The translations under genes were made by a program, and so were the position numbers. From assembly GCF_009914755.1 (NCBI RefSeq), contig NC_060937.1: a stretch of 64,000 bases of DNA. One strand, 5' to 3'. The stretch comes from the human T2T-CHM13v2.0 reference genome, Homo sapiens. The notes below the pieces were generated by a model that saw only the letters and a program-made list of their open reading frames with translations, did not search any database and was not told the origin of the DNA. Shown here in pieces: positions 2,175 through 46,130 of the stretch; position 1 is the first letter of the stretch; each line of letters begins with the position of its first letter.

Positions 2175-2261
2175 CGGAGCATCCTGACTCATCAGGTAAG
2201 CGCCATGGCCCTGGGTCACGGCTTCTAGGTACTCTTGCTGGGCTTCTTCCTTCTCTTTAAT
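2175..2261 (-). CDS. PARP4: PARP4 coding exon (VIT domain): IKEKEEAQQEYLEAVTQGHGAYLMSQDAP
   Basis: Acceptor cttttccag|ATTAAA and donor GCTCCG|gtatgg. 87 bp. Carries the VIT-domain KEKEEA..Y..A...G motif. Confidence 0.75.
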
Positions 2262-2675
2262 CTGGAAAAGATGAGTTTTAAATCATTCCTTACATGAAGA
2301 GTGACTTCAGGCTTTAATGAAGAAAACAACATCAATGTTTACTAAAACCCAGGCAAAAACTAAAAACTGAGTCTAAGATGAATGGAAACTTAAATAAAGT
2401 GATCATCGAAATATACTTATCTGATAAGAACTTGAACCAGAAAAGGCCAACTAAAGAGAAGTCTCTTTCAGTTGGGATCAAAATATTTCAGAATCAATAG
2501 TGAAAAAAATTTTTCTGGTTGGGAGTTTATGTGGAACAAAACATAATAATTACTTTAAATTTGGGAAATTGTAGTTTCTAATTGTAACTGTGGACTAATC
2601 CTTACAATAAACAAAGAATTAATCAACTGTTGTTTCTTTTCTTTTTTTTTAGAAAGTTACAATAGCTTTCATTTC

Positions 2676-2760
2676 AGCTCGAACCCCTGACCTCAAGTGA
2701 TCCACCTGCCTCAGCCTCCTGAAGTGCTGGGATTACAGGGATGAGCCACTGCACCCGGCC
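2676..2760 (-). mobile_element. Alu fragment (left-arm end)
   Basis: cctcaagtgatccacctgcctcagcctcctgaagtgctgggattacagggatgagccactgcacccggcc. Confidence 0.8.
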
Positions 2761-3044
2761 CTCTTTAACTTTTCATACTGAAATCACTCTTACGGTGCCA
2801 AGGCAAAGAATGTGCAAGACACTGAAGATGAAGACTGGACAGATGGGGGTAGAAACCCTTCATCACGGAGGGATGCTTGAGGGAGGCTCACTGCGCAAGA
2901 ACTGATTCTTCAAAGAATATTCTCGTTTTATGATAAGGCTGCTACTCAACCTTGTAGCCATGGGGACTCCAAAAACAAAGGTTCTGGGAAATGGAAGCTG
3001 ACTTTGAAAGCCGAGAGCGGGCACGATGCATCTTCTTGCCTTAC

Positions 3045-3161
3045 CTCTCCAACTATGTGCTTCCCATTGATGAAGGCTTCGAAGCCACACACAGCGGCCT
3101 TGTCATCCAAAGGAAAGATATATTTTGCCTCAATGGGCACGTGACTTTTATTTGTGTATGT
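3045..3161 (-). CDS. PARP4: PARP4 coding exon (VIT domain): TYTNKSHVPIEAKYIFPLDDKAAVCGFEAFINGKHIVGE
   Basis: Acceptor tgtttttcag|ACATAC and donor GGAGAG|gtaagg. 117 bp. The VIT-domain pattern F.FP.......F.A.I.GK.I.GE is present. Confidence 0.85.
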
Positions 3162-5039
3162 CTGAAAAACAATGACCTGAAGAAGAAAAAAAATCCATAC
3201 AATTGATGAGACCACATGGACTACATTTGCAGGAACAAGGACGAACGAAAATGATTTTGCATATTTATTTGAATTTCCTTGAATTTGTATCACGTCCCTC
3301 AAATTCCCAACCCTGGCTTCACTTCTGCAATGGAGAGCCCATGTCATGTGATAAAATGCACCAGTCCCACGGTTAGGTGGTTCATTCATGTCTGACTGGA
3401 ATAGAAGCCACCTGAAGTCTTACCAACACTGACTTAGCAGACGCAATATAGCTCTTGTTAAGACAGCTGGAAAATCGCCCCTTTCGTTTTGTGGGCTTTG
3501 ATGCCTCCTTCGTGCCATGTTGGCTGGAAACGATTCCAGAATAGTCCTTCTATCCTATCAGCTCTCAGGACTTGGCCTTTCCTCCTGGGGACCTCTCTGT
3601 GGCTTTCCCCCTCTCTACACAGCCCTCATCTAGCTCCTCATCTCTGTGTGCGTTGGTTCTTCCAGAATCAAGTCTTCTCCACTACTCTCTGTTGTCTCTA
3701 TTATCTAATTAATCTTTCCAACAGACTGTTTTCATCACTCCCTCACTCAGGAAAAGGCGGGAGGCTTTAAATATTTGAAAATTAAGAAAAAACTCCTCAG
3801 ACATACAATAAACAGTAAGATTTTAAACATGTGACAATAATAAGGCAAAAATATTTAATGATCTGTAATCAATAATCCAGGGAAGACACCAAAATGAAAA
3901 ATTTAAAAAAAAAATCTAACTTATTTGAAAACATTGTCCACACCTGGATTTGCTGCAAGCTTGGCTGCCCCTAGGGTGTGTAGGGTGCCAGGCAAAATTT
4001 TTCAAGGAGTCCTTGTTAATATGAGCAATTTGAGTCTCCCCAAATCAGCAGGTCAGCACCGTCCTAGAGACAGAATCTCTTGCCATCCTGCAAATGAACA
4101 CCTTGCTGGCCAGTGGGTAGGATTCCTGGAATCCCGGTCTGGCCAGCCACCCAAGAGGAGGCAAACGTGCGTCCTGGAGTTTCTCAGCGATCTGGGCTAT
4201 GCTGCCTGCAATGACTGCTTAGAGTGTGCCTGGTGAGGAGGCACCAGGACTGGGGCCCACCTAGTACTGACTGGGGGGACGTCAGACACTGTCCCCTTGA
4301 CCGTGCACGGAACTCCTTCTCATCCTGTCTTGGATTTCCTCAGTTTTACGAAACCCTCAAAGGCATGTATGCTTGCCCTGAGTTTGATGATCAGGATCAC
4401 TATCTAATTGTACTTGGTGTAGACTAATGTTTCTTCCTACTCAGTAGCCTTCCTGCCTGTTCTAGTTAGCAGGCCCGCCTTTGCGCAGGAGTCCCCAGAC
4501 ATCAGGCCGGTGGCAGCTGCACTCTCTTTTCATATCACACTGTGTGGCTGGGCACTCACAAAGGTCAATAATTTTAGATAACGATAATAAAAGTATTTTT
4601 ACCAGGCCTTAGAACAGAAACTAATATAATGTAACAAATTTTGACATCTTAATTTTCTTCCATTAGATAAAACCATGATGTAACTAAGCTTAACATCATC
4701 AATTTATTCCAAGAAGGGTCAAAATGTATGAGCCATGCACATATAAGAATCTACACCCCAGCCTCTGCTTGGATACTCAAGCTAAATCTACAGTCTGGCT
4801 GTTTCATCAAAAAATGAGTGAGAAATTCACTGCTAAATCGAGTTATTTTGGGGCAAACTTCCCCAGGGAACAGGCCTCTTCGGGTTTGAAATATCAAATG
4901 GTACAAGTCATCTAATCCCAAGTAAGGCATGGAGGACACACGCCTCTCCCTGTAACCTCGTCATAATTTGTTGTGCACACAAAAACAATGCCCTAAGTCC
5001 TTTATATTTATTAGATTGAATAGCCACTACACTGATGGG

Positions 5040-43733: not shown

Positions 43734-43969
43734 GTGTTCACTATTAGAAATACACTTTAATTAAAATGCTTGTACATATATTTTTTTGCCACATCTCTGT
43801 CATAGTTTCCCTAGAGTTGATGGCCAGAAATGGAATTACTGAATCAAGGAGTATAAACATTTTTTAGCCTTTTAAAAATTGTGGTACAGTTTTTAAAACT
43901 GTGTGTACAGTTCAGTGGCATTAAGTACATACACATAGTTGTGAAATCAAAGTATAAACATTTTATTTT

Positions 43970-44249
43970 ATTTGAGACAGGGTCTGGCTCTGTCTCCCAA
44001 GCTGGAGTGCAGTGGTGTGGTCACTGTCACAGCTCACTGCAACCTCGACCTCCCTCCCAGCAATCCTTTCACCCGGCCTACTTAGTAGCTGGGACCACAG
44101 GCCTGCACCACCATGCCCAGCTAATTTTGGTAGAGACAGGGTTCTTACTATGTTGCCAAGGCTGGTCACAAACTCCTGGGCTCAAGCCATCCTCCTGCCT
44201 CAGCCTCCCAGAGTGCTGGGGTTACAGGTGTGAGCTGCCACGCCCGGCC
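43970..44249 (-). mobile_element. Alu
   Basis: gagacagggtctggctctgtctcccaagctggagtgcagtggtgtgg...gttacaggtgtgagctgccacgcccggcc. Confidence 0.9.
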
Positions 44250-45469
44250 CAGAGTAAAAACATTTTAAACATAAATCTGCGGTCTGTTCTTAGCACCTGC
44301 GGCTGCGTGGGAGGTATGGAAAGGCGCACTTTGGGTTTCGTGAAATCTCAAGTCAGGTCTTGACTTCTCTCTTTCCACAGATTCATCTCTAGTCTCTGTA
44401 AAATGCCAGCCCTCTTCTGGGTTAACAGCGCCTAACCGACATGCGCCACTAGTTCTTCCTTGTTTCAAAGTGTTCTCTAAACACAGAGTTAGTTCATGTT
44501 TTCATCAGCGCTGATTACGTACATATGAGATGTGGCGGACACTGGGCTAGGGGCTGGTTATTCTCTAAGGCAAATCTGCACAGTCACTCCAGCCTGTCCC
44601 CCTTCCCAGCTTCTTCCCCAAATAACATTCACAGAGTGTCTTCCACCCAAAGACAGCAGGGAACAGCCCCGATTCCTAAGAAACCCTCAGAGCGCCTCCT
44701 CACAAACTCTTGGCTGCTCCATAAACCATTGGTGTAGGTGGAATCAAGTGGCTTCCTGCTTCACAGGTCTTCGTCTTTACCACTGGCATTTCCTCCTCTC
44801 GGAAAACCCTGAGGAGTCCCTTTCTGGGCAGTCTTGATTCTACAGCCTCCGCCTTCCGAAGTGTGTGAGTCAGCACACGCTAAGATCACTTTTGATATAC
44901 AGTGGGCATTCAATAAAAGCTTGCTTACTAAAAACTCTCACGTATCCATTAAAGCCCAGGATTACAGAAAAGCCTTCTGACACTATTTGCATTTTGGACT
45001 CAAATGGCATCAGTAATGCACCTCCCTAATGGGTTTATTAAACCCTTAAACAACAAAGGTACTACTTTTATTTCACTCCTACATGATATACAGTAGCTCT
45101 ACGCACACAAACAAGACCTAATGTTTACTTAATAAATGATAAAGTCAGATGTAATGAGTCTGCAACACGCACATCTCAGAGCGAACTTCCCCTTTATCAT
45201 AGCACTATGCTTGGATATTGTCATATAATTGTTGTCATCCAGCAGTCCAGAATTGAAAGTGCTTGGGCTTGAATATTTAGCAGCGCCTTAGTTTTCTAGA
45301 ACCTGTGATCTACCAACTCGATCCCTGGGTGAACCATTCGGCCCTCCTAGCAGGAATTACTTAACTGAGTTAGAGGTTTTCAACTTTGGACCTCAACAAA
45401 CACATTGTTTCTATCACGGTGTTCCCAATGACTCACGAGGTCAGATAGTACTTCCTGATTACTCACCAA

Positions 45470-45700
45470 ACCACCTTACTTTTTGCACAATTCGAAACCT
45501 AACTTTAGGAAAGAAGGCCGTTTGGCATACTGGAAACAAGAAACAACGCATGCTACTGCGAACCGCACCGCACGGGGTGCGGAGACTTGGTGTGACTGTC
45601 GGCTCCGGTGGGCGCCCCCCACCGCACCCGGTTTCTCGTCACCAGGGCTGCGCCGCGGGGCAGAGCGGAACGACCGCAATATCCCTCCCCGAGGGCGCTG
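45470..45700 (-). other. PARP4: Candidate non-coding exon 1 (5'UTR) of PARP4. The donor AAAAAG|gtaaggtgg lies at 45470 on the minus strand. The 5' end (TSS) is not determinable from sequence.
   Basis: The ATG exon (36808-36940) is preceded by a splice acceptor (tttttttcctacag|GATG), so there must be an upstream exon. A strong donor on the minus strand sits at the edge of the CpG island. Confidence 0.3.
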
Positions 45701-46130
45701 GCTGCACTAGCTAGTCCACTCCCGAGCCTAGCAGCGCCGTCAGGCCCACAGCGCCAACGCCGCGCAGGGCAAGGGTGCAGCCACTGGCGGGAAAGTAGTA
45801 CGCGGGCCACTTCCTGGCTAGGACTACAGGGACCTTTGCAGCCCCCCACCCCGCAGCGCCCACGCACCTGCCTAGAGGATCCAGCTAGCTCCGGACGCTC
45901 CCCGATTCCGCGCTCCTTGCTCGCGGTACTTCCGTAATCTAGGCTCTCCCTGCCCCCGGGGCTGGGCGGGCGCCACTGCGCCGGAACCCCGCCCCGCACC
46001 AGGCGGGCGCAGCGTCCCAAGCAGGGACGATAGCCGGAACGCGCCCGGAATCGGGTCCGCCAGGTGGGGAGCGGGTCCCCGGCCTCTGGCGGGGTTTCTC
46101 TTCCAAGATCAGCCGGAGGGTTCAGGGCTT
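45540..46130. promoter_or_regulatory. PARP4: CpG island, probably the PARP4 promoter (possibly bidirectional)
   Basis: Very high CpG density and GC content over ~600 bp, with ETS-like GGAA/TTCC cores (cacttcctggc, ggtacttccg). It sits 8.5 kb upstream of the first coding exon on the gene's strand. Confidence 0.6.

What the first reader, a model, noticed from the sequence alone, without database searches (positions are those of the whole stretch)
2175..46130. Intact 5' half of PARP4 (vault PARP): 16 coding exons, all splice sites and reading phase verified by eye
Reading the minus strand gives consecutive exons whose conceptual translation runs without frameshift or stop from MVMGIFANC... (BRCT) through the PARP catalytic H-Y-E residues (HGS in the exon at 19322-19459, GSGIYF at 17807-17902, DEFVVY at 10854-11010) into the VIT domain (3045-3161 and 2175-2261). 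Each junction has a GT donor and an AG acceptor. A CpG island sits 8.5 kb upstream of the ATG exon. The six-frame ORF track only hints at this, because exons are short and separated by repeat-filled introns. Human PARP4 is known to have pseudogene copies, so intactness matters for deciding whether this is the functional locus.
Basis: partly seen in the sequence, partly recalled or inferred. Interest (0 to 1): 0.5.

Follow-up and report, generated by a model that had tools for sequence, protein, structure and literature searches.

The report
Intact 5' part of human PARP4
This stretch holds the promoter and the first 16 protein-coding exons of the well-known human vault enzyme gene PARP4, fully intact, so it is the working gene and not one of its broken duplicate copies; it is correct but ordinary.

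Summary
On the minus strand, 16 exons (36939 down to 2175) splice through AG/GT sites into a 2133-nt open frame of 711 codons with no stop or frameshift. The product matches, 711 of 711 residues, the 1724-aa human PARP4 chain of PDB 9BW6/9BW7. Pfam finds BRCT, PARP_reg, PARP catalytic and the start of VIT, in that order. H438, Y477 and E547 align with the PARP1 H-Y-E triad. A 775-bp CpG island at 45451-46225 lies 8.5-9.3 kb upstream of the ATG. It contains a conserved donor for a non-coding exon 1 ending at 45868.

Two corrections. The ATG exon is at 36939-36808; 46130 is inside the island.

The pseudogene rival fails. The only paralogous copy I could fetch (bonobo, 5 Mb proximal) is about 93% identical in DNA, lacks six of these exons and has frameshifts. 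No human genome was available for direct placement.

Already known; low interest.

The parts
46120..46230 (-). Proximal promoter block conserved between this window and the mole-rat PARP4 upstream region; carries an ISRE-like GAAACTGAAAG at 46138-46128
   Evidence: blastn to L002 3930-4046, 73% over 118 nt. The motif count in the window is not above chance.
45451..46225 (.). CpG island (775 bp, GC 0.63, CpG o/e 0.84), presumed PARP4 promoter
   Evidence: sequence read
45868..45902 (-). 3' end of the putative non-coding exon 1 (TSS not determined); donor CAG|GTGCGT with GT at 45867-45866; intron 1 is 8927 nt
   Evidence: Best donor in the island, 8 of 9 consensus positions. No ATG between 46100 and 45868. 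Splicing to 36940 gives GGCAG|GATGG, with A at -3 and G at +4. The donor is conserved in the mole-rat, 81% over 53 nt. Inferred, no transcript data.
36808..36940 (-). ATG exon (coding exon 1, aa 1-44, BRCT start); ATG at 36939-36937, acceptor AG at 36942-36941
34796..34997 (-). coding exon 2, aa 45-111 (rest of BRCT)
33475..33541 (-). coding exon 3, aa 112-133
32459..32534 (-). coding exon 4, aa 134-159
31273..31386 (-). coding exon 5, aa 160-197 (WGR-like region)
27730..27879 (-). coding exon 6, aa 198-247
26753..26890 (-). coding exon 7, aa 248-293 (helical/PARP_reg domain starts)
25578..25751 (-). coding exon 8, aa 294-351
23825..23985 (-). coding exon 9, aa 352-404
19322..19459 (-). coding exon 10, aa 405-450; catalytic His438 (codon 19362-19360)
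17807..17902 (-). coding exon 11, aa 451-482; catalytic Tyr477 (codon 17826-17824)
11246..11429 (-). coding exon 12, aa 483-544
10854..11010 (-). coding exon 13, aa 545-596; catalytic Glu547 (codon 11004-11002)
8623..8747 (-). coding exon 14, aa 597-638; VIT domain begins at aa 623
2175..2261 (-). coding exon 16, aa 683-711 (VIT); donor GT at 2174-2173; the gene continues beyond the window

Best explanation
The window carries the promoter CpG island, a probable non-coding first exon and the first 16 coding exons (residues 1-711 of 1724) of the functional human PARP4 gene, transcribed from the minus strand. PARP4 is also called vault PARP or ARTD4.

Shown here: the exons are intact, correctly phased and bounded by canonical splice sites. 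They encode BRCT, the WGR-like linker, the helical regulatory domain, the ADP-ribosyltransferase domain with an H-Y-E triad, and the first four-fifths of the VIT domain.

Taken from the literature, not tested here: the protein uses NAD+ to ADP-ribosylate targets. Its BRCT domain binds vault RNA (PMC12212138). A C-terminal domain encoded outside this window docks it inside the major-vault-protein cage (PMC12280208).

Inferred: transcription starts in the island between about 46120 and 45900. Exon 1 ends at 45868 and splices over an 8.9-kb intron to 36940, one base before the ATG.
For: The 16 exons give 2133 nt and 711 codons with no stop, all AG/GT. The product is 711/711 identical to PDB chain 11jf_P = 9bw6 = 9bw7, 'Protein mono-ADP-ribosyltransferase PARP4', 1724 aa, described as human vault PARP4. 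It is also identical to the crystallised catalytic and BRCT fragments 8sx1, 8swy and 9dev. Pfam hits: BRCT 3-81, PARP_reg 257-359, PARP 389-565 (E 1.7e-41), VIT 623-710. H438, Y477 and E547 align to the HGS, GIYF and NEY motifs of PARP1 and are conserved in 15 orthologues. Fifteen of the 16 exons have the same length and AG/GT boundaries in the mole-rat PARP4 locus, and the exon-1 donor is conserved. The CpG island is present. The paralogous copy in bonobo is 93% identical on average in DNA, lacks 6 of the 16 exons, has two frameshifts and a lost donor, and has 14 amino-acid changes in 264 residues, all of which the window lacks. 39 Alu-like blocks fit a primate genome.
Against: No human genome or transcript set was available, so chromosomal placement (13q12) and the exon-1 and TSS assignment are indirect. 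Protein identity alone cannot strictly exclude a very recent intact duplicate, or the orthologous locus of a very close relative of human. The pseudogene comparison used the bonobo copy, not the human PARP4P1, PARP4P2 or PARP4P3 sequences themselves. The guide peptide used to locate the exons was recalled from memory, but identity was afterwards established independently against the PDB chain.
Confidence: 0.95

Rival explanations
1. The window is one of the duplicated PARP4 pseudogene copies (PARP4P1, P2 or P3-like segmental duplication), not the functional locus.
For: Such copies exist. Papers describe a PARP4 pseudogene about 5 Mb proximal on chr13 that exchanges variants with PARP4. The bonobo copy overlaps window 780-21558 and 29848-33709, so it includes exons present here.
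Against: The window has every exon, no disabling change and 711/711 identity to the human protein. The fetched paralog is only 91-95% identical in DNA, lacks coding exons 1, 2 and 6-9, and has frameshifts in exons 3 and 4. The window also carries the CpG-island promoter and the ATG exon, which lie beyond the 5' end of the homology with that paralog (the alignment stops at window 33709).
Confidence: 0.01
2. It is the orthologous, functional PARP4 locus of a non-human great ape, or an archaic or non-reference human assembly, rather than the reference human gene.
For: Only protein-level identity to human was tested. Apes share about 99% DNA identity with human, and no ape full-length PARP4 was returned by the protein search for comparison.
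Against: There are zero differences in 711 residues from the human sequence used for the PDB entries. PARP4 is reported to carry many nonsynonymous variants and signs of positive selection (PMC4248024), so a different species would be expected to differ at several residues. That last step is inference.
Confidence: 0.04

Closest known systems
Human PARP4 (vault PARP, ARTD4), as in PDB 9BW6/9BW7/11JF, 8SX1, 9DEV
   Same: Residues 1-711 are identical. The domain order is the same: BRCT, WGR-like, helical, ART (H-Y-E), VIT.
   Different: Nothing detected. The window simply ends inside the gene, so the rest of VIT, the vWA domain and the MVP-interaction domain are not present.
PARP4 pseudogene copy on the chr13 homologue (bonobo 'PARP4-like', CM054474.2 at 18.98-19.05 Mb; likely counterpart of human PARP4P2)
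   Same: Homologous DNA over about 24 kb of the window, including coding exons 3-5 and 10-16.
   Different: About 93% DNA identity. It has no promoter and no exons 1-2, an 8.3-kb deletion removing exons 6-9, 2-nt deletions in exons 3 and 4, a lost donor, and 14 substitutions in 264 residues.
PARP1 C-terminal BRCT-WGR-CAT module
   Same: Same domain series and the same H-Y-E catalytic triad positions.
   Different: The phmmer match to PARP1 is only E ~1e-25 and, with the catalytic fragment alone, breaks into two stretches. PARP4 is described as a mono-ADP-ribosyltransferase associated with vaults and has a VIT/vWA/MVP-ID tail that PARP1 lacks (PMC12212138).

Membership tests
PARP4 (vault PARP) gene, functional copy | N-terminal BRCT domain | tested here: met
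   Pfam BRCT 3-81, E 1.4e-15. Identical to the crystallised BRCT fragment 9dev_A residues 1-100.
PARP4 (vault PARP) gene, functional copy | WGR-like domain between BRCT and the catalytic region (PF26166) | tested here: inconclusive
   The Pfam copy available for scanning returned no PF26166 hit. Orthologues carry a precomputed PF26166 'WGR-like_PARP4', and residues 100-250 are identical to the human chain.
PARP4 (vault PARP) gene, functional copy | Helical regulatory domain plus ART domain with the H-Y-E triad | tested here: met
   PARP_reg 257-359 and PARP 389-565. H438, Y477 and E547 aligned to PARP1 and conserved in orthologues.
PARP4 (vault PARP) gene, functional copy | VIT domain following the catalytic domain | tested here: met
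   VIT 623-710 covers profile positions 1-88 of 111, E 4.9e-29. The remainder lies outside the window.
PARP4 (vault PARP) gene, functional copy | vWA domain and C-terminal MVP-interaction domain | not testable with these tools
   These are encoded downstream of window position 1. No further exon lies in 1-2174.
PARP4 (vault PARP) gene, functional copy | Uninterrupted reading frame with canonical splice sites and conserved exon structure | tested here: met
   In the mole-rat locus, 15 of 16 exons have the same length and AG/GT boundaries.
PARP4 (vault PARP) gene, functional copy | Chromosomal position 13q12 in the human assembly | not testable with these tools
   No human genome collection is available.
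PARP4 pseudogene (duplicated, unprocessed) | Disabling mutations or missing exons | tested here: not met
   No stop, frameshift or lost splice site; all 16 exons are present.
PARP4 pseudogene (duplicated, unprocessed) | Orthologue-level DNA identity to a known paralogous copy | tested here: not met
   91-95% identity (mean 93.1%) to the bonobo copy over about 24 kb.

The most novel reading that the evidence does not exclude
Two side observations are not excluded as new. (a) The tandem in-frame acceptors of coding exon 15 (3176 and 3161) could yield a minor isoform lacking five conserved VIT residues (VIVFQ). (b) The roughly 9.6-kb degenerate 171/345-bp array at 52311-61890, 6-16 kb upstream of the promoter, may be a relic of ancient dimeric alpha satellite and may mark an old pericentromeric-type duplication boundary next to PARP4. 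Both are probably visible already in existing human annotation (RepeatMasker, splice-junction databases), which I could not consult.
Probability: 0.1. Interest if true: 0.2.

Novelty: already known. Interest (0 to 1): 0.05.

Why it matters
It matters only as a correct annotation. The window is the working PARP4 locus, not a pseudogene, which is relevant to variant calling because PARP4 and its duplicated copies are reported to share polymorphisms (PMC4248024). It adds nothing new about PARP4 biology.

Tried and rejected
- **Beam search for exon boundaries:** it first chose a wrong donor for exon 14 (8619) and a wrong exon 15, because it tolerated 10% mismatch. I corrected this by hand to 8623 and 3176.
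- **Protein database:** it returned no protein longer than about 1250 aa and no full-length primate PARP4, so it could not give the human or ape orthologue. Identity was established through PDB chains instead.
- **Lemur locus:** the look-up for P0001 failed because the protein is not on record. I used the mole-rat locus P0003/L002 instead.
- **RNA genes:** Rfam at gathering thresholds found nothing and ARAGORN found nothing. The introns hold no detectable structured RNA or tRNA genes.
- **GC-rich ORFs:** the ORFs at 45553-46140(-) and 40264-40683(+) have no Pfam match and are taken as chance ORFs.
- **Alpha satellite:** plain blastn of a recalled consensus found only two short hits. The relationship showed only when the array consensus was aligned as a whole.
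- **ISRE-like motif:** it occurs twice in the window against 1.99 expected, so on its own it is not evidence. Only its position and conservation are suggestive.
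Full report
**Observation.** Each has an AG acceptor, a GT donor and the quoted peptide in one frame. I then located all candidate exons with tblastn, using a guide peptide recalled from memory for location only. Exact boundaries were fixed by requiring AG/GT sites and a continuous phase.

The result is 16 coding exons on the minus strand, from 36939 to 2175. 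They total 2133 nt and 711 codons, with no stop codon and a canonical AG...GT at every junction. Nothing resembling the next exon lies in 1-2174, so the gene runs off the low end of the window.

**Identity, tested independently of the guide.** phmmer against all PDB chains gives an alignment of residues 1-711 to residues 1-711 of a 1724-aa chain named 'Protein mono-ADP-ribosyltransferase PARP4' (11jf_P, 9bw6, 9bw7). Every position is identical. The paper that deposited 9BW6/9BW7 describes the human vault cage with PARP4 (PMC12280208). The crystallised catalytic fragments (8sx1, 8swy) and the BRCT fragment (9dev) also match.

- Pfam finds BRCT (3-81), PARP_reg (257-359), the PARP catalytic domain (389-565, E 1.7e-41) and VIT (623-710, profile positions 1-88 of 111).
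- Aligned to the PARP1 catalytic fragment, llHGS, GsGIYF and ddEfvvY fall on lwHGS, GkGIYF and ynEyivY, the H-Y-E positions.
- These residues are H438, Y477 and E547, with codons at 19362-19360, 17826-17824 and 11004-11002.
- The big protein database returns only PARP4 orthologues: lemur 83%, sloth 80%, mole-rat 79%, down to fish at about 42%.

1. The ATG exon is 36939-36808. The upper limit of the finding (46130) lies inside the CpG island.
2. The exon given as 3045-3161 has two in-frame acceptors 15 nt apart: ttcttcttcag|GTCATT at 3176 and ttgtttttcag|ACATAC at 3161. With the donor of the preceding exon at 8623 (GCCCAG|gtatgt), only 3176 gives ...TVAQVIVFQTYTNK.... That is the sequence of the human chain, and all 15 aligned orthologues keep V-[IVT]-[IVML]-[FY]-Q at this point. 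The mole-rat exon is also 132 nt.
3. VIT begins in the exon 8747-8623.

**Promoter.** A CpG island of 775 bp (45451-46225, GC 0.63, o/e 0.84) lies 8.5-9.3 kb upstream of the ATG.

- On the minus strand its best donor is CAG|GTGCGT, with the exon ending at 45868 (8 of 9 consensus positions).
- No ATG lies between 46100 and 45868.
- Splicing to 36940 gives GGCAG|GATGG, a good start context with A at -3 and G at +4.
- The donor and its surroundings are conserved in the mole-rat PARP4 upstream region (81% over 53 nt). A second block, 46230-46120, is also conserved (73% over 118 nt).

I therefore infer a non-coding exon 1 ending at 45868 and an 8927-nt first intron. The TSS is not determined.

**Functional locus or pseudogene?** Papers describe a PARP4 pseudogene about 5 Mb proximal on chromosome 13 that shares polymorphisms with PARP4, and name PARP4P2 (PMC4248024, PMC7882720). 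The protein search returned one such copy, a 582-aa bonobo 'PARP4-like' model. It is 95% identical (250 of 264 residues) to residues 448-711.

Its locus is CM054474.2 at 18.98-19.05 Mb (L001). It aligns to window 780-21558 and 29848-33709 at 91-95% DNA identity, length-weighted mean 93.1%. Relative to the window, that copy:

- has no counterpart of coding exons 1 and 2 or of the promoter;
- has an 8.3-kb deletion that removes exons 6-9;
- has 2-nt deletions in exons 3 and 4, and a lost donor at exon 4;
- carries 14 amino-acid substitutions in exons 11-16.

The window shows none of these. Its identity to that copy is far below what an orthologous human-bonobo pair would show. The intactness test thus discriminates, and the window falls on the functional side.

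Fifteen of the 16 exons have identical lengths and AG/GT boundaries in the mole-rat PARP4 locus. The short, diverged exon 3 gave no tblastn hit. This shows that the exon structure is the ancestral one. What I could not do is align the window to a human assembly.

**How it works.** The architecture comes from this analysis; the biochemistry comes from the literature and was not tested here.

- PARP4 is an NAD+-dependent ADP-ribosyltransferase.
- Its N-terminal BRCT-WGR-CAT module is homologous to the C-terminal part of PARP1, and the BRCT domain binds vault RNA (PMC12212138).
- An ITIH-like VIT/vWA region follows.
- A C-terminal MVP-interaction domain docks the enzyme inside the vault (PMC12280208).

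The window encodes everything up to the first four-fifths of VIT.

**Surroundings.**

- *Repeats in the introns:* they are rich in repeats, with 39 Alu-like blocks covering 15.5% of the window. This fits a primate genome.
- *Transposon remnant:* an ORF at 13655-14191(+) matches the Tc5 transposase DNA-binding domain.
- *Inverted repeat pair:* window 39211-39914 and 13330-12582 are inverted copies of one repeat family (75% over 778 nt). They carry 41-bp subrepeats. From memory these resemble LTR12; I could not test that.
- *Satellite-like array:* upstream of the promoter, 52311-61890 is a degenerate tandem array with a 171-bp period and a 345-bp dimer. Units are 74-84% alike.
- *Relation to alpha satellite:* the reverse complement of the array consensus aligns colinearly with a recalled alpha-satellite consensus over about 325 nt. 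The score is 64, against 12.5 +/- 2.3 for shuffles and 19 for the other strand.
- *RNA genes:* Rfam and ARAGORN found none.

**Verdict.** The observation and the interpretation are both right, apart from one 15-nt acceptor and the position of the ATG exon. This is the known, functional human PARP4 gene, so novelty is nil and interest is low.

Noticed in passing
window 52311-61890: A degenerate tandem array of about 9.6 kb, with a 171-bp period and a 343-345-bp dimer; units are 74-84% alike. It is interrupted by Alus and has an inverted segment at about 55040-55925. The reverse complement of its consensus aligns colinearly with a recalled alpha-satellite consensus (score 64 against 12.5 +/- 2.3 for shuffles). 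It may be a relic of ancient dimeric alpha satellite, 6-16 kb upstream of the PARP4 promoter.
   Followed up: partly
window 3161-3176 (minus strand): Tandem in-frame acceptors 15 nt apart at coding exon 15. Use of the downstream AG would delete the conserved VIVFQ of the VIT domain.
   Followed up: partly
window 46128-46138 (minus strand), within the conserved block 46120-46230: An ISRE-like GAAACTGAAAG, preceded by another GAAA, sits in the promoter block conserved with the mole-rat. The motif count in the window is not above chance (2 against 1.99 expected). PARP4 is reported as weakly interferon-induced (PMC9087173) and is listed in a table of IFN-beta-responsive genes in lymphocytes (PMC1483835).
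   Followed up: partly
L001 (bonobo CM054474.2:18984578-19045605) against window 780-21558 and 29848-33709: The paralogous partial PARP4 copy has its 5' homology boundary at window 33709, in the intron after coding exon 2. It has a clean 8.3-kb deletion corresponding to window 21559-29847. Exons with 20-nt flanks are 97.2% identical, against about 93% for the aligned segments overall (mostly intron). That fits constraint on the window's copy only. A CCDC144C-like gene flanks the copy.
   Followed up: partly
window 39211-39914 and 12582-13330; GC-rich block 39951-40500: Two inverted copies of one repeat family (75% over 778 nt) with 41-bp internal subrepeats. The copy in intron 1 adjoins a 550-bp block of GC 0.72. 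From memory this resembles LTR12 (HERV9 LTR); not tested.
   Followed up: partly
window 13655-14191 (+): A 178-aa ORF matching the Tc5 transposase DNA-binding domain (PF03221, E 1.9e-07). It is a pogo/Tigger-type DNA transposon remnant in the intron between coding exons 11 and 12.
   Followed up: yes
window 29138-29355: A 111-bp unit repeated twice at 95% identity, in the intron between coding exons 5 and 6 (TRF score 401). Unexplained.
   Followed up: no
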